Shown here piece after piece: positions 961 to 10,092 of a stretch of 32,000 nt of DNA. This stretch comes from Candidatus Thorarchaeota archaeon (GTDB lineage Archaea > Asgardarchaeota > Heimdallarchaeia > Hodarchaeales > Hodarchaeaceae): positions 1 through 32,000 of the forward strand of contig JBHLRO010000018.1 of assembly GCA_048882505.1 (NCBI GenBank), in the 5' to 3' direction. The notes beneath the pieces are model-generated. The model was not told the origin of the DNA. It saw only the letters and a list, made by a program, of their open reading frames with translations, and made no database searches. How positions within the stretch are numbered: the stretch's first letter is position 1; each line of letters opens with the position of its first letter. The position numbers and the translations under genes are program-made.

Positions 961-1752
961 TTAACGGCTTTTCCGAGTTGCTATCCTTTCTGAAACGAAG
1001 TTGACTCGGCTGCAGAGTGCTATAAAGAGGTCATACATCCGCCTAAGATCCAAGGACTCATTAATGAGCGAATAGATTCTAATCGTTGGGTCGTCGGCAG
1101 AATCAATAGAAATCCGCACCAGTCCTTCTCGATTGTTGTAAATAGACTTAAGCAGATCTTTGTCACCAAGGAGAAAGAGACCGCTCTTCTGAGAAGTAGC
1201 TTTAATCAAAAAATACTCATCTAGGCTGGGAACGTTGAGAGTGATTGTATCAAGAGTGAATAACAGATCCTGATGCTTTCGGATTTGCCCTTCCTCCTTT
1301 TTTGGGATGATTTGAAGTTTTGTTTGGATTTTTCCTTTCTTGGCATTAGCTTCCAAAGCGATATAGTCCTTGGCTCCTGAAAACCATGAAATGATGACAG
1401 ACAACATCAGATGGCGTTCTTCCAGCGCAAAAACTACCCGAAAGTCTTTAAAAGGAGGTGAATAAGATCCTTTATAACGGGGAATTAGGAGGCCTCCATT
1501 GGAGGAGAGTTGGTCTACAATTAAGTCATCAAACTCCTGAGAGAACACATCAAGTAATAATTCACGATTTTTCTCAACGATTTTGTGGTTTTTTCTTCTG
1601 CCAGCCCAGAGCAAGTAGAAAGTATAGAATAGAATTAATGCAGGACCGATTAATGGGAGGACGAGATCCAACCAAGAGTAAGAGCCCGTCTGAAGGAAAA
1701 ATTGGCTCAGATTTTGAAAGAATTCCATCACTAGGTAAAAGAACGCCATCAT
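961..1752 (-). CDS. Single-pass membrane protein, CCDC47/DUF1682 (PAT complex subunit)-like
   Basis: One TM helix (LIGPALILFYTFYLLW) followed directly by AGRRKN...F and later R-x3-L-x-V-x9-D. Both motifs and their spacing match CCDC47 as recalled (IGKNKN...SNF; KRQDLLNV...SD). The CDS is clearly real; the family call is by eye. Confidence 0.6.
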   Translation of the reverse strand: MMAFFYLVMEFFQNLSQFFLQTGSYSWLDLVLPLIGPALILFYTFYLLWAGRRKNHKIVEKNRELLLDVFSQEFDDLIVDQLSSNGGLLIPRYKGSYSPPFKDFRVVFALEERHLMLSVIISWFSGAKDYIALEANAKKGKIQTKLQIIPKKEEGQIRKHQDLLFTLDTITLNVPSLDEYFLIKATSQKSGLFLLGDKDLLKSIYNNREGLVRISIDSADDPTIRIYSLINESLDLRRMYDLFIALCSRVNFVSERIATRKSR

Positions 1753-1797
1753 TGAACCCAGCTGTAGGGAAGATTGCCGTCGTTAATAACTGTTGTT

Positions 1798-2340
1798 TCA
1801 CGGGGCGCTTTCTCTAATGTAGCTAGCAACCTCTTGCGCACGGAAGGGTCTTTTCTCTTGTTGCCCCACAACTTGGTAACATTGAAACACGGCCCGTCCG
1901 TTGCTTTCAATCTGGGTGGGATCAATAACCAAAGCAACAGATAACGCTTGGTGCAGCTGGAAGGAGTAGATATGGGTGGAAATATCAGTCTGGGACAGGA
2001 ATAGGCCGTACCCGGGATGTGAATGCCACCAACCCACACAATGGAGATCTTCCTCGAGAAGCTGTTCAAAGGAAGAAAAATCATCTTCGGAAAATTCAAC
2101 TGAGGTCTCATCACCTTCAGTGACAAACAGAAGTCTAGTGATGAGGAGTTCGTTGGTACGGAACTCTTTACCACCAAGGAGTCCAATGGCTTCACGAGGG
2201 ATTGCCTGCTGGGCGTGTTGAGTCATTTTATCTAAAAGGGAACCCAGAAGGGTAATTGATGAAACTTGGGTTTCTAATTGGATCGGCAGTTCTCTCGGAT
2301 CTTCCGATTCTGAACGGTTCGTTAAGTTCCTTTTTGGCAT
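1798..2340 (-). CDS. JAB/MPN+ (JAMM) metallo-isopeptidase, Rpn11/CSN5-like, MPN domain only
   Basis: EAIGLL plus VGWWHSHPGYGLFLSQTD gives the complete E...H-x-H-x7-S-x2-D motif. Confidence 0.93.
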   Translation of the reverse strand: MPKRNLTNRSESEDPRELPIQLETQVSSITLLGSLLDKMTQHAQQAIPREAIGLLGGKEFRTNELLITRLLFVTEGDETSVEFSEDDFSSFEQLLEEDLHCVGWWHSHPGYGLFLSQTDISTHIYSFQLHQALSVALVIDPTQIESNGRAVFQCYQVVGQQEKRPFRAQEVASYIRESAP

Positions 2341-8192: not shown

Positions 8193-9091
8193 CTGAGTTG
8201 GCTCTTATATTGCGCTAACTTCTTGGAGTACTTATCAGATAGTTCCTTGTATTTATCTTCTGAAATCTTCCCATTAAGGAACATTTCATCTGCTTGTTCC
8301 ACCATGAGTTCATATTTCTTGATTTTCTCTGCAATGTCATCAAACTGTTCTCGCTCTTCTGCCAAAGATCGCTGCTGTTCTAGAACCTGTTTTTCTACTT
8401 CATATGCCAGCAGAGATTGATACTCATCGGGAACCTTAAATCCCCCTATATCCAGTCCAACAAGTTCCAAGCCCCAGCGAGAAGTCTCAGGACCCAATTC
8501 CGCACGGGTCTGGATTTCAAGGCTGCGTCGTTCTCTCAATAATTCCGGAACTGTGTAACGGGACATCACATGCTTGACGGCCCCAATTATGGTTTGTTTC
8601 ACCCAGTTCTTTAGTTCCTCGCTTGAATAATACTGCCTGTGAGAGACTACATTTGAAATGAAATTTCGGGGATTAACTATCCTCATTCGGGAAATTCCGT
8701 AACAACCTATCATGACATTGTCTGCGGATAAAATCCCAGGCGTTCCCCATCTGATAACGAATTCTCGTTTACTTACCCAGATTATTTCGCTACCCGGGCG
8801 TTTTGCTAGCTTATCCAGTTCATATATTCCACTTCCTGCAACACCTACCAGTGTACCCGACTGTAGAAGTACAGCATTTTCAGGATCTTTGACAATAAAG
8901 CCATCATCTTTACGGAAACCATCTCGATCGTCAGAACGAACTCGTGAAACTAGCGAACCTCCATTCTCTTCACTAAAATCAGAGCTTAAGATGGTTTTTC
9001 CACGAAATCTTTTGGAACCAAGGTGTACTGCGTCGCCAATCCTGCGGAACAATCCCCCGAATTTCTCGACTTCTGTCATCTTTTTCACCAA
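8189..9091 (-). CDS. SPFH/Band-7 domain protein (YdjI-like, no TM) with C-terminal coiled coil and SHOCT-like tail
   Basis: FIVKDPENAVLLQSG...SGIYEL, FVIRWGT, RIVNPRNFI and RWGLELVGLDIGGFKVPDEY are typical of the soluble SPFH subfamily. Tail LNGKISEDKYKEL. Alternative ATG at 9079. Confidence 0.82.
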   Translation of the reverse strand: MVKKMTEVEKFGGLFRRIGDAVHLGSKRFRGKTILSSDFSEENGGSLVSRVRSDDRDGFRKDDGFIVKDPENAVLLQSGTLVGVAGSGIYELDKLAKRPGSEIIWVSKREFVIRWGTPGILSADNVMIGCYGISRMRIVNPRNFISNVVSHRQYYSSEELKNWVKQTIIGAVKHVMSRYTVPELLRERRSLEIQTRAELGPETSRWGLELVGLDIGGFKVPDEYQSLLAYEVEKQVLEQQRSLAEEREQFDDIAEKIKKYELMVEQADEMFLNGKISEDKYKELSDKYSKKLAQYKSQLS

Positions 9092-10092
9092 TCATCGCCA
9101 TAAAGGCCAGGAAAGTAGTACTGGTATCCCGAATCAAGAGAGGAAACTTTTCTTGCAATCTTTTGCTTAACTAGACCTTCCAAGACTCGTATCACACGTT
9201 GCTGTTCCCATTTTGTGTTTAAAACAACATCTTCAAGTGTAACAAAACCTTTGTCAACTGCAAGACTAAAAACGCGTTCAGCATCTTTACCCAATGAAAC
9301 GGGTACAAATTCAACGATTTTGACCCCTGAACGTTCTGAAATGCCCTCGATCAGTGATTGTTTCTGCAGATTTTTACACGCGTTTTCGATGTCCTTGACA
9401 GAGAACTTCACATCAGGAACCTGATCTTTTAGTGCGGTATAAAGGTTTGCAAGAGAAATATAGCCTCCGGAACTTGCGCGCAGATTTTTTCCATATTGGA
9501 GAACTAAATCTGAGATTTGGTCTCTAAATTTGCCCCTACCAAACAAACGGGGTCTTTCAGTTGCATCTAGCGCTGTGATTGTTAAAGCCCTACCTTCCTT
9601 ACGTAAAAGTTCTCTTTCAAGTTGCTGGATCCGCGTATCATAACGCTTTTGAAGATCCCTGATCTGTTCAGTCGAAACGCTGGCGCCATCGGCCAATTTT
9701 TGCTGAATATGGATTACTTCCCCCAAGCGAGCGATATGTTCACCAATTTCCTTTATGGTATTGCGGACCTCAATTCCTTCTTCACCAAAATCAAGATCTT
9801 CTGCTAGCTTTTGTGACTGTTCTGCAATTCTTTCACAGAGCACCGAGGCCAATAATTGGGCTACTCGAATTTCGCCACTTGTCTGGAGATCGGACTTGGT
9901 CTGGTCAGGATGAAGAATAAAATCAGGTATTGTTTCCGAACTGTAACGGATTTCTTCAAATTTCGTAAATAGATTCATAGAAATATCCGCAGCACTTCGG
10001 GCTTTTGTTGAAATACTATTGTTTAAGGCAATTAACGCCTTATTTGCCTTCATAAAATACTCTTGCAACGCTCTGAATCTCCAGAGGATCAA
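9085..10092 (-). CDS. ESCRT-II Vps22/Vps36 (EAP30)-family protein with long N-terminal helical/coiled-coil extension
   Basis: C-terminal half GRGKFRDQISDLV...SSGGYISLANLY...DIENACKNL...VEFVPVSL...GFVT...KWEQQRV...YYFPGL matches the tandem winged-helix EAP30 pattern. Likely ATG at 10053. Confidence 0.8.
   Translation of the reverse strand: MILWRFRALQEYFMKANKALIALNNSISTKARSAADISMNLFTKFEEIRYSSETIPDFILHPDQTKSDLQTSGEIRVAQLLASVLCERIAEQSQKLAEDLDFGEEGIEVRNTIKEIGEHIARLGEVIHIQQKLADGASVSTEQIRDLQKRYDTRIQQLERELLRKEGRALTITALDATERPRLFGRGKFRDQISDLVLQYGKNLRASSGGYISLANLYTALKDQVPDVKFSVKDIENACKNLQKQSLIEGISERSGVKIVEFVPVSLGKDAERVFSLAVDKGFVTLEDVVLNTKWEQQRVIRVLEGLVKQKIARKVSSLDSGYQYYFPGLYGDDW

What the first reader, a model, noticed from the sequence alone, without database searches (positions are those of the whole stretch)
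961..10092. Candidate proto-UFMylation / translocon quality-control locus in an Asgard archaeon
Seen in sequence: within ~9 kb lie a GG-ending Ubl, an E1, an E2, a JAMM isopeptidase and a RING-like protein, i.e. a complete conjugation/deconjugation cycle, plus a UEV-like protein, SPFH and ESCRT-II. By-eye comparison gives three independent links to eukaryotic ER-ribosome biology: the Ubl has UFM1-like features, the candidate E3 carries UFL1/DDRGK1-type winged helices, and the gene downstream of E2-JAMM on the same strand resembles CCDC47. Established: UFL1-DDRGK1 ufmylates uL24 on SEC61-bound 60S, and CCDC47 is a ribosome-bound multipass-translocon factor. Known archaeal ubiquitin operons use a small RING protein and, as far as I recall, lack these partners. 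Inference: an ancestral system that tags ribosomes or nascent chains at the SecY translocon, built from canonical E1/E2 chemistry before UBA5/UFC1 specialised.
Basis: partly seen in the sequence, partly recalled or inferred. Interest (0 to 1): 0.9.

Follow-up and report, generated by a model that had tools for sequence, protein, structure and literature searches.

The report
Asgard ubiquitin operon with UFL1-like E3
A Hodarchaeales archaeon carries an ordinary ubiquitin-type tagging operon whose likely E3 ligase is built on the same winged-helix scaffold as the eukaryotic UFM1 ligase UFL1, and next to it lies a true distant relative of the ER translocon factor CCDC47, but the two are linked in only one genus, so a "proto-UFMylation at the translocon" system is not shown.

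Summary
The genes are real and at the stated coordinates. They are a GG-ending Ubl, a canonical E1, an HPN-Cys E2, a JAMM isopeptidase, an SPFH protein, an EAP30 (ESCRT-II) protein, and a 588-aa protein with five to six tandem winged helices, Cys-rich modules, a PCI-type winged helix and a C4C4 RING.

- The 588-aa protein is a UFL1 homologue by family profile and by fold.

The third link fails. The Ubl is ubiquitin/SUMO-like at family level, not UFM1-like. The genome shows no Ufm1, UFC1, DDRGK or Asterix match.

Synteny separates the parts:
- ZnR263–Ubl–E1–UFL1-like is conserved as a same-strand block in a second Hodarchaeales lineage, which supports the UFL1-like RING protein as the cognate E3.
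- The CCDC47-like family occurs in 64 of 151 Asgard genomes. In 40 loci outside this genus, none has a ubiquitin-system gene within 10 kb.

Verdict: this is a new variant of the known Asgard ubiquitin–ESCRT cluster. The CCDC47 family in Asgard appears unreported. The translocon-tagging model remains speculative, at about 0.1. First-reader notes of this scan on this same window had already listed the same resemblances.

The parts
355..930 (+). Arf-family small GTPase, convergent with the CCDC47-like gene (a second, truncated Arf gene lies at 1-345)
   Evidence: Pfam Arf 2e-47, also SRPRB 3e-10. An Arf-like GTPase also lies beside CCDC47-like genes in family f3 loci and on the P0167 contig.
961..1752 (-). 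CCDC47-like single-pass membrane protein (263 aa). It has a TM helix followed by a G-R-R-K-N motif, a cytosolic alpha/beta domain and one C-terminal helix. It lacks the lumenal domain and the C-terminal latch helices of CCDC47.
1798..2340 (-). JAMM/MPN+ isopeptidase (Rpn11-like deubiquitinase)
   Evidence: Pfam Prok-JAB 5e-13 and JAB 1e-11. The HSHPG...S..D motif is visible in the translation.
2368..2913 (-). Canonical E2 (UBC fold with HPN and catalytic Cys, and an insertion between them)
   Evidence: Pfam UQ_con 5e-23. Best PDB matches are ubiquitin E2s such as UBE2K and UBE2D; no UFC1 among the 60 best matches listed.
3380..4171 (+). 263-aa protein with an N-terminal Zn ribbon and two conserved domains of unknown fold (ZnR263). 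It heads the Ubl-E1 transcription unit.
   Evidence: No significant family or PDB match. It is conserved immediately upstream of Ubl-E1 in the genus and in a second Hodarchaeales lineage at L080:9187-9975.
4213..4518 (+). Ubiquitin-like modifier ending in IKGG. The annotated form is 83 aa, starting at 4270.
   Evidence: Pfam ubiquitin and Rad60-SLD match 20 of 20 family members; Ufm1 matches 0 of 20. The family is conserved in Hod-, Odin-, Thor- and Heimdall-labelled MAGs, and some members carry extensions after GG.
4603..5844 (+). Canonical E1 (ThiF adenylation domain plus C-terminal domains)
   Evidence: Pfam ThiF 1e-50. Best PDB matches are UBA1, UBA7, UBA3 and SAE2 (1e-32 to 1e-24); UBA5 reaches only 4e-18.
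5883..6233 (-). 116-aa Zn-ribbon protein with a Lys/Pro-rich tail, function unknown
   Evidence: Only weak Zn-ribbon Pfam matches. It is conserved in position within the genus and absent from the L080 block.
6426..8192 (+). Candidate E3 of 588 aa: an N-terminal helix, five to six tandem winged helices collinear with UFL1 residues 27-302, Cys-rich Zn modules (about 365-445), a PCI-type winged helix (462-523) and a C-terminal C4C4 RING (about 526-578).
8189..9091 (-). SPFH/Band-7 protein with a C-terminal coiled coil; its start overlaps the end of the EAP30 gene
   Evidence: Pfam Band_7 1e-17 and Band_7_1 7e-13.
9085..10092 (-). ESCRT-II-type EAP30 (Vps22/Vps36 family) protein with an N-terminal helical extension
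   Evidence: Pfam EAP30 1.3e-8, 35.3 bits against a 26.8-bit cut-off.

Best explanation
This is a Hodarchaeales version of the Asgard ubiquitin(-ESCRT) gene cluster, and it works by ordinary ubiquitin chemistry.

Proposed mechanism:
- The GG-ended Ubl is adenylated and thioesterified by a UBA1/UBA3-type E1.
- It is passed to an HPN-Cys E2.
- It is ligated with the help of the 588-aa protein. The C-terminal C4C4 RING of that protein would recruit the E2~Ubl. Its UFL1-like tandem winged-helix arm and PCI-type winged helix would dock the substrate or a partner complex.
- The JAMM enzyme removes the tag. In relatives whose Ubl carries residues after GG, it also matures the precursor.
- The EAP30 and SPFH genes place the system in the membrane-remodelling and sorting context already described for Asgard ubiquitin-ESCRT clusters.

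The neighbouring 263-aa membrane protein is a true remote homologue of CCDC47. Its link to the ubiquitin genes is a genus-level arrangement, not a conserved module.

Shown here: domain identities, catalytic motifs, homology to UFL1 and CCDC47, and the conserved ZnR263-Ubl-E1-UFL1-like block.

Inferred: E3 activity of the RING protein, its substrates, and any role of the CCDC47-like protein.
For: - Domain and motif assignments.
- The Ubl family is ubiquitin/Rad60-SLD in 20 of 20 members and ends in GG.
- UFL1 homology of the 588-aa protein rests on sequence profiles and fold. RING-type matches cover residues 526-582.
- ZnR263-Ubl-E1-UFL1-like are contiguous on one strand in a second Hodarchaeales lineage whose Ubl is 65% identical. 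The order is fully conserved in 10 of the 11 loci examined in the window's genus, and partly in the eleventh, L016.
- Synteny of ubiquitylation and ESCRT genes in Asgard genomes is published (PMC9192718, read).
- UFL1 and DDRGK1 homologues in Asgard, proposed to predate UFM1 and to have a UFM1-independent role, are published (PMC10183829).
- CCDC47 homology.
- Lack of a conserved link between the CCDC47-like gene and ubiquitin genes.
Against: - No biochemical evidence exists. E3 activity and E2 binding by the RING were not tested.
- The RING matches are individually weak (E 0.02 to 1).
- E2-JAMM-CCDC47-like lie on one strand with gaps of 27 and 45 nt. That is compatible with co-transcription, and so with a functional link that I rate as unproven.
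- In family f12 the CCDC47-like gene overlaps by 4 nt a Vps36-GLUE-like Zn-ribbon gene. This hints that the family may have a recurrent tie to ubiquitin/ESCRT-type modules after all.
- Only one ESCRT-type gene (EAP30) is in the window. No Vps25, ESCRT-III or Vps4 was seen here.
Confidence: 0.6

Rival explanations
1. The locus is an ancestral UFMylation-like pathway. The UFL1-like E3, anchored or guided by the CCDC47-like protein at the SecY translocon, tags the large ribosomal subunit (uL24) or stalled nascent chains with the Ubl.
For: - Both UFL1 and CCDC47 homologies are real. In eukaryotes both proteins bind the 60S subunit near the exit tunnel at SEC61; the matching PDB entries are ribosome complexes 8ohd, 8qfc, 7tm3 and 6w6l.
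- CCDC47-like lies on the same strand, 45 nt downstream of E2-JAMM.
- The wider window is rich in translation genes: aIF2-alpha, aIF2-beta and NMD3.
Against: - CCDC47-like is not near any ubiquitin-system gene in 40 loci from about 20 Asgard families. It is also not in the conserved Ubl-E1-UFL1-like block of a second Hodarchaeales lineage.
- Within the genus the whole 15-gene block is collinear, so adjacency carries no weight.
- The Ubl is not UFM1-like at family level.
- The CCDC47-like protein lacks the C-terminal latch helices (alignment ends at CCDC47 residue about 394-404). From my own knowledge of the published translocon structures, those helices are the part of CCDC47 that contacts the ribosome.
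- The UFL1-type winged-helix array is a reused module: a HEAT-repeat fusion occurs in the same genome, and Vps28/adaptin fusions are described in bioRxiv 10.1101/2020.10.19.343400.
- uL24 of this genome ends in an acidic, lysine-free tail.
Confidence: 0.1
2. The CCDC47-like protein is coupled to the ubiquitin/ESCRT machinery, but not to ribosome tagging. It would act as a membrane anchor, receptor or client-holding factor in ubiquitin-dependent sorting or quality control of membrane proteins, together with SPFH and ESCRT-II.
For: - The E2-JAMM-CCDC47-like arrangement looks like an operon.
- There is an independent association in family f12: a Vps36-GLUE-like plus Zn-ribbon gene overlaps the start of CCDC47-like by 4 nt. 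Pfam Vps36_ESCRT-II matches 6 of 6, best 8e-5, and the top PDB hit is yeast Vps36. The same gene lies 1-5 kb away in family f23.
- SPFH and EAP30 are in the same cluster.
Against: - The GLUE-like assignment is below Pfam's cut-off, and the PDB match is E 0.033.
- The main EAP30/UEV clusters of those f12 and f23 genomes lie elsewhere.
- Most CCDC47-like loci have unrelated neighbours such as NAD(P)HX dehydratase, CstA and a KaiC-like ATPase.
Confidence: 0.2
3. The 588-aa winged-helix/Zn protein is not an E3. It is a nucleic-acid- or complex-binding scaffold (PCI/MarR-like winged helices with Zn ribbons) that merely neighbours the ubiquitin genes.
Against: - Collinear coverage of about 280 residues with UFL1, plus significant sequence-profile hits specific to UFL1.
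- Conserved position directly after Ubl-E1 in two lineages.
- The eight Cys ligands of the C-terminal module are invariant.
Confidence: 0.08

Closest known systems
Asgard ubiquitin-ESCRT gene clusters (Zaremba-Niedzwiedzka 2017; Hatano et al. 2022, PMC9192718)
   Same: A GG-ended ubiquitin-like protein, a canonical E1, an E2 and a JAMM/Rpn11-like protease are encoded together with ESCRT-type genes (here EAP30). The lineage is Heimdallarchaeia.
   Different: The E3 candidate is a 588-aa UFL1-like winged-helix array with a RING, not a small RING protein. SPFH, a Zn-ribbon protein of unknown fold and a CCDC47-like gene are included. Vps25, Vps28, ESCRT-III and Vps4 are not in this window.
Eukaryotic UFL1 (with DDRGK1/UFBP1), the UFM1 E3 ligase
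   Same: There is an N-terminal helix followed by tandem winged helices collinear with UFL1 residues 27-302. Homology is detectable by sequence profile and by fold.
   Different: The archaeal protein carries Zn modules and a C4C4 RING, which UFL1 lacks. It works beside a canonical E1/E2 and a ubiquitin-like Ubl. No UFM1, UFC1 or DDRGK match was found in the genome. It lacks the C-terminal half of UFL1.
Eukaryotic CCDC47 (PAT complex / multipass translocon subunit; Pfam PF07946)
   Different: About half the size. No signal peptide or acidic lumenal domain, and no C-terminal latch/coiled-coil helices. Below Pfam's gathering score (14.8 against 27.7 bits). No Asterix match in the genome. Three paralogues per genome.
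Mycobacterial TtfA (PDB 6t84) / Pfam DUF3137
   Different: The match is weaker and shorter than to CCDC47 (160 against 220 aligned residues; Foldseek TM 0.34 against 0.55-0.61). It shows that the fold is not confined to eukaryotes and Asgard.
Caldiarchaeum subterraneum ubiquitin operon (PMC6043591)
   Same: A compact Ub-E1-E2-RING-Rpn11 cassette with canonical chemistry.
   Different: That operon has a small RING protein and no winged-helix scaffold, ESCRT, SPFH or CCDC47-like genes.

Membership tests
CCDC47 (PF07946) | Reaches Pfam's curated gathering score | tested here: not met
   The window protein scores 14.8 bits against a 27.7-bit cut-off. The best family members score 26.8-27.5 bits, just under it. 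16 of 32 members hit at E <= 1, best 7e-7.
CCDC47 (PF07946) | Single TM helix followed by a cytosolic globular domain of the CCDC47 fold | tested here: met
CCDC47 (PF07946) | N-terminal lumenal acidic domain and C-terminal coiled-coil/latch helices | tested here: not met
   The protein starts about 25 residues before the TM helix and ends after one helix. Alignments cover only human residues about 130-404 of 483.
CCDC47 (PF07946) | Partner Asterix; binding to ribosome-Sec61/SecY | not testable with these tools
   Pfam ASTER gave no match in the genome, but the control genomes did not ring either. Binding needs experiments.
UFL1 (E3_UFM1_ligase, PF09743) | N-terminal helix plus tandem winged-helix array homologous to UFL1 | tested here: met
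   The family profile hits UFL1 chains at E 2.3e-5 to 1.3e-4. Pfam PF09743 matches 13 of 20 orthologues, best 3e-6. Foldseek top five hits are UFL1. The alignment is collinear, model 26-306 to UFL1 27-302.
UFL1 (E3_UFM1_ligase, PF09743) | Scaffold-type E3 without RING/HECT, acting with UFC1, UFM1 and DDRGK1 | tested here: not met
   A C4C4 RING and further Zn modules are present. No Pfam Ufm1, UFC1 or DDRGK match was found in the 94.5%-complete genome. The neighbouring E1 and E2 are canonical.
UFM1 (PF03671) | Sequence membership of the Ubl | tested here: not met
   Pfam Ufm1 matches 0 of 20 family members even at E <= 10. UFM1 is not among the top 60 PDB profile hits. No Ufm1 clusters appear among the atlas neighbours. 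The N-terminal half alone gives no hit. There is a single marginal phmmer match to mouse Ufm1, E 0.019.
UFM1 (PF03671) | UFM1-type fold details (structural comparison) | not tested
Ubiquitin family (PF00240) | Pfam score above cut-off and C-terminal Gly-Gly | tested here: met
   The 83-aa form scores 27.1 bits against a 25.4-bit cut-off. 20 of 20 members match. GG is invariant.
Canonical E1 / E2 / JAMM | ThiF adenylation domain; UBC fold with HPN and Cys; JAMM metal motif | tested here: met
RING E3 | Cross-brace eight-ligand Zn module that binds an E2 | tested here: inconclusive
   The eight Cys are invariant. Matches to CNOT4, MAT1, BRE1, TRIM and RING1B RINGs are weak, E 0.02-1.6. RNF4 RING by Foldseek, E 0.038. 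E2 binding was not tested.
ESCRT-II (EAP30, PF04157) | Pfam score above cut-off | tested here: met
   35.3 bits against a 26.8-bit cut-off.
UEV / E2-variant (for 3380-4171) | UBC-like fold lacking the catalytic Cys | tested here: inconclusive
   No UQ_con or UEV match for 12 orthologues or in the PDB profile search. No atlas hit. The fold was not predicted.

The most novel reading that the evidence does not exclude
The eukaryotic UFM1 ligase scaffold (UFL1) and the translocon factor CCDC47 both descend from Asgard proteins. In at least one Hodarchaeales lineage these proteins act together. A RING-bearing UFL1 ancestor would use canonical E1/E2 and a ubiquitin-like tag to mark ribosomes or clients at the SecY translocon, where the CCDC47 ancestor sits. 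UFMylation would then be a later re-tooling of an archaeal ubiquitin pathway.
Probability: 0.1. Interest if true: 0.9.

Novelty: new variant of a known kind. Interest (0 to 1): 0.58.

Why it matters
Picchianti et al. (PMC10183829) proposed that UFL1 and DDRGK1 arose in Asgard archaea before UFM1 existed, and must then have had a UFM1-independent job. This locus offers a concrete, testable candidate for that job. A UFL1-like winged-helix scaffold is fused to a RING and kept directly behind a ubiquitin-like gene and its canonical E1 in two Hodarchaeales lineages.

Separately, a family homologous to CCDC47 is present in 26 of 52 sampled Asgard genera. I found no paper in the searchable library that mentions it. 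If it holds up, it would add a component of the ER multipass translocon to the list of eukaryotic signature proteins with Asgard roots.

The attractive idea that the two are one pathway is not supported by comparative genomics, and should not be taken as established.

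Tried and rejected
- Complex prediction of the 588-aa protein with the cytosolic part of CCDC47-like (residues 56-263) gave 'no answer', score 0.00. This is neither evidence for nor against binding.
- The look-up of sequencing runs listed no RNA holder, so co-transcription of E2-JAMM-CCDC47-like could not be examined.
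- The narrow CCDC47-like profile (A1) found no CCDC47 in the PDB by sequence. The broad profile (A5) put CCDC47 first, but only at E 0.077.
- An exhaustive hmmsearch of 1.84 billion representatives with profile A3 returned only 39 proteins of 58-281 aa and no eukaryote-sized CCDC47. Sequence alone therefore does not bridge to eukaryotes at library-wide significance.
- The UFM1 reading of the Ubl was rejected at family level.
- The UEV reading of ZnR263 could not be tested for lack of a fold. Only a chance-level SUMO2 match, E 0.059, was seen.
- A DDRGK1-specific reading of the C-terminal winged helix was rejected in favour of a generic PCI-type winged helix.
- uL24 was checked for a eukaryote-like Lys-bearing tail. 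It has an acidic, Lys-free extension, which is uninformative.
- The supplements of PMC12962969 are not held. I therefore could not check whether its Asgard 'Ufm1 homologues' are this Ubl family, or whether CCDC47 is listed there.

Full report
**What is there**

The window is contig C18 of a 4.3-Mb, 94.5%-complete MAG. Near-identical database proteins are labelled Hodarchaeales/Heimdallarchaeota.

ORF calling and Pfam give two divergent gene groups. A 466-nt AT-rich spacer at 2914-3379 separates them.
- Leftward: E2 (2368-2913, UQ_con 5e-23, HPN and Cys present), JAMM (1798-2340, intact metal motif), then a 263-aa membrane protein (961-1752). The gaps are 27 and 45 nt.
- Rightward: a 263-aa Zn-ribbon protein (ZnR263, 3380-4171), the Ubl (4213-4518; annotated form 83 aa; ends IKGG), E1 (4603-5844, ThiF 1e-50), and, after a small antisense Zn-ribbon gene (5883-6233), a 588-aa protein (6426-8192).
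- Convergent with that group: SPFH (8189-9091) and EAP30/ESCRT-II (9085-10092).
- Flanks: Arf-family GTPases, a RimI-type acetyltransferase, aIF2-alpha and GINS.

**Chemistry of the cassette**

The E1 is closest to the active adenylation domains of UBA1, UBA7, UBA3 and SAE2 (1e-32 to 1e-24). UBA5 scores only 4e-18. The E2 matches ubiquitin E2s.

**The Ubl**

A single-sequence search gave a full-length but marginal match to mouse Ufm1 (E 0.019). Matches to mono-ubiquitin were of similar strength.

At family level the picture changes. The family is highly conserved across Hod-, Odin-, Thor- and Heimdall-labelled MAGs.
- All 20 members scanned hit Pfam ubiquitin and Rad60-SLD. None hits Ufm1, even at E <= 10.
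- The profile search of the PDB lists ubiquitins and no UFM1 in the top 60.
- Language-model neighbours are ubiquitin/Rad60-SLD clusters.
- The genome has no Pfam Ufm1, UFC1 or DDRGK match.

I therefore read the Ubl as an Asgard ubiquitin-like protein. A fold comparison was not possible.

**The 588-aa protein**

Evidence for UFL1 homology:
- A 20-sequence family profile hits human UFL1 chains at E 2e-5 to 1e-4. It aligns two stretches, residues 21-103 and 64-169.
- Pfam E3_UFM1_ligase matches 13 of 20 orthologues (best 3e-6), and PCI matches 20 of 20.
- The AF2 model (pLDDT 83) shows an N-terminal helix, five to six winged helices up to about residue 362, Cys-rich modules, a winged helix at 462-523 and a terminal Zn module.
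- The Foldseek top five hits are all UFL1: 60S-bound complexes 8ohd, 8qfc and 9gy4, and the UFL1-DDRGK1 chimera 8b9x, at E 4e-9 to 4e-7.

The winged helix at 462-523 is best described as PCI-type, not specifically DDRGK1-type. The terminal eight-Cys module is invariant and matches RINGs weakly.

UFL1-type arrays are reused in Asgard. The same genome encodes a 798-aa HEAT-repeat protein with an E3_UFM1_ligase domain. Liu et al. describe other fusions.

**The 263-aa membrane protein**

Sequence evidence:
- Pfam CCDC47 is the only hit (E 0.016, below cut-off).
- It recurs in 10 of 19 orthologues (best 9e-6) and in 16 of 32 members of the wider family (best 7e-7).
- Several members align over model positions 7-227 at 25-27.5 bits against a 27.7-bit cut-off.

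Fold evidence from the AF2 model (pLDDT 72):
- It finds CCDC47 chains of ribosome-translocon structures as the top three PDB hits.
- It finds CCDC47 orthologues from animals, plants and fungi as the top 12 Swiss-Prot models.
- The broad profile aligns the TM helix, the G-x-x-K-N motif and the invariant Arg and Asp with human CCDC47.

The archaeal protein lacks the lumenal domain and the C-terminal latch helices.

The family is small in sequence space: 39 representatives among 1.84 billion, none of eukaryotic size. It is nonetheless widespread in Asgard: 64 of 151 genomes and 26 of 52 genera. This genome has three copies.

I found no paper combining CCDC47 or 'PAT complex' with Asgard.

**Is it one system?**

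Within the window's genus, all 15 genes from the Arf pair to GINS are collinear in 10 of the 11 loci examined. The eleventh, L016, showed only the Arf-to-Ubl part. Protein identities are 42-90%. Because housekeeping genes are equally fixed in that block, adjacency says little there.

Outside the genus I fetched 40 loci of CCDC47-like genes from about 20 families. I scanned +-10 kb with profiles and with the window's proteins. None holds a Ubl, E1, E2, JAMM, UFL1-like, SPFH or EAP30 gene. The short contigs of the closest outgroup also show none.

By contrast, a second Hodarchaeales lineage (Ubl 65% identical) keeps ZnR263, Ubl, E1 and a 600-aa UFL1-like protein (E 8.5e-90) contiguous on one strand. 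It has no CCDC47-like, E2, JAMM, SPFH or EAP30 gene within 10 kb.

The full-length winged-helix/RING architecture was found only in the window's genus among 151 sampled Asgard genomes.

The conserved core is therefore ZnR263-Ubl-E1-UFL1-like. The CCDC47-like gene is a lineage-specific neighbour.

**A caveat in favour of some link**

In family f12 the CCDC47-like gene is preceded, with a 4-nt overlap, by a gene of about 250 aa that combines a Vps36-GLUE-like/GRAM domain with a C-terminal Zn ribbon. Pfam Vps36_ESCRT-II matches 6 of 6 (best 8e-5, below cut-off). The top PDB hit is yeast Vps36 at E 0.033, covering its GLUE and NZF segments. The same gene lies 1-5 kb away in family f23. The main EAP30/UEV clusters of those genomes are elsewhere.

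This keeps open a looser tie between the CCDC47-like family and ubiquitin/ESCRT-type modules.

**Verdict**

The synthesis into a 'proto-UFMylation/translocon quality-control locus' is not supported by co-occurrence, by the nature of the Ubl, or by the presence of other pathway parts.

The best-supported reading is a canonical Asgard ubiquitin system whose cognate E3 is a RING protein built on a UFL1-type scaffold. It sits in an ESCRT-II/SPFH neighbourhood, next to an Asgard CCDC47-family gene that appears unreported in the library searched.

Earlier first-reader notes of this scan on the same window listed the same resemblances. I tested them independently here.

Noticed in passing
L058:10628-11383 (-), L059:9113-9865 (+), L061:9149-9886 (+); also L041-L043: In Asgard family f12 the CCDC47-like gene is preceded, with a 4-nt overlap, by a gene of about 250 aa with a Vps36-GLUE/GRAM-like domain and a C-terminal Zn ribbon. 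The same gene lies 1-5 kb away in family f23.
   Followed up: partly
G000:C13, L077:8280-10676 (-): A second UFL1-domain protein in the same genome: 798 aa, with N-terminal HEAT repeats plus E3_UFM1_ligase (24.1 bits, above cut-off). It lies next to an ERCC4 nuclease, a GNAT, a longin-like protein and a Ras-family GTPase.
   Followed up: partly
G000:C9:110862-111602 (-) and G000:C25:7654-8283 (+): Two further CCDC47-like paralogues in this genome. Tandem ArsA/Get3-like ATPase genes lie 3-5 kb from the C25 copy and from its relatives in five other genomes.
   Followed up: partly
window 3380-4171 (+): ZnR263 is strictly kept directly upstream of the Ubl in two Hodarchaeales lineages, but has no detectable family. 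Its C-terminal part gives only a chance-level SUMO-like match.
   Followed up: partly
alignment A4 (Ubl family): Several orthologues of the Ubl in other Asgard lineages carry 1-10 residues after the Gly-Gly. They would need processing, presumably by the JAMM enzyme. The window's copy ends exactly at GG.
   Followed up: no
window 13117-16275 (+): A prepilin-type peptidase is followed by two Roadblock/LC7 genes and an Arf/Ras-like GTPase, in an MglB/MglA-like arrangement.
   Followed up: no
window 10956-11741 (-), 20325-22341 (+): Translation and ribosome-biogenesis genes (aIF2-alpha, aIF2-beta, DUF424, NMD3, an RsmB-type methyltransferase, a GTPase) surround the cluster.
   Followed up: no
G000:C38, L078:1375-1881 (-): uL24 of this genome has a long acidic, lysine-free C-terminal extension, unlike the Lys-bearing tail ufmylated in eukaryotic RPL26.
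   Followed up: no
several contigs of the window's genus: Many other proteins in these genomes match only the C-terminal RING, or the PCI winged helix plus RING, of the 588-aa protein. Examples are a 707-aa ORF at G000:C4:49164-49496 and ORFs of about 370-390 aa. This suggests an expanded family of RING E3 candidates.
   Followed up: no
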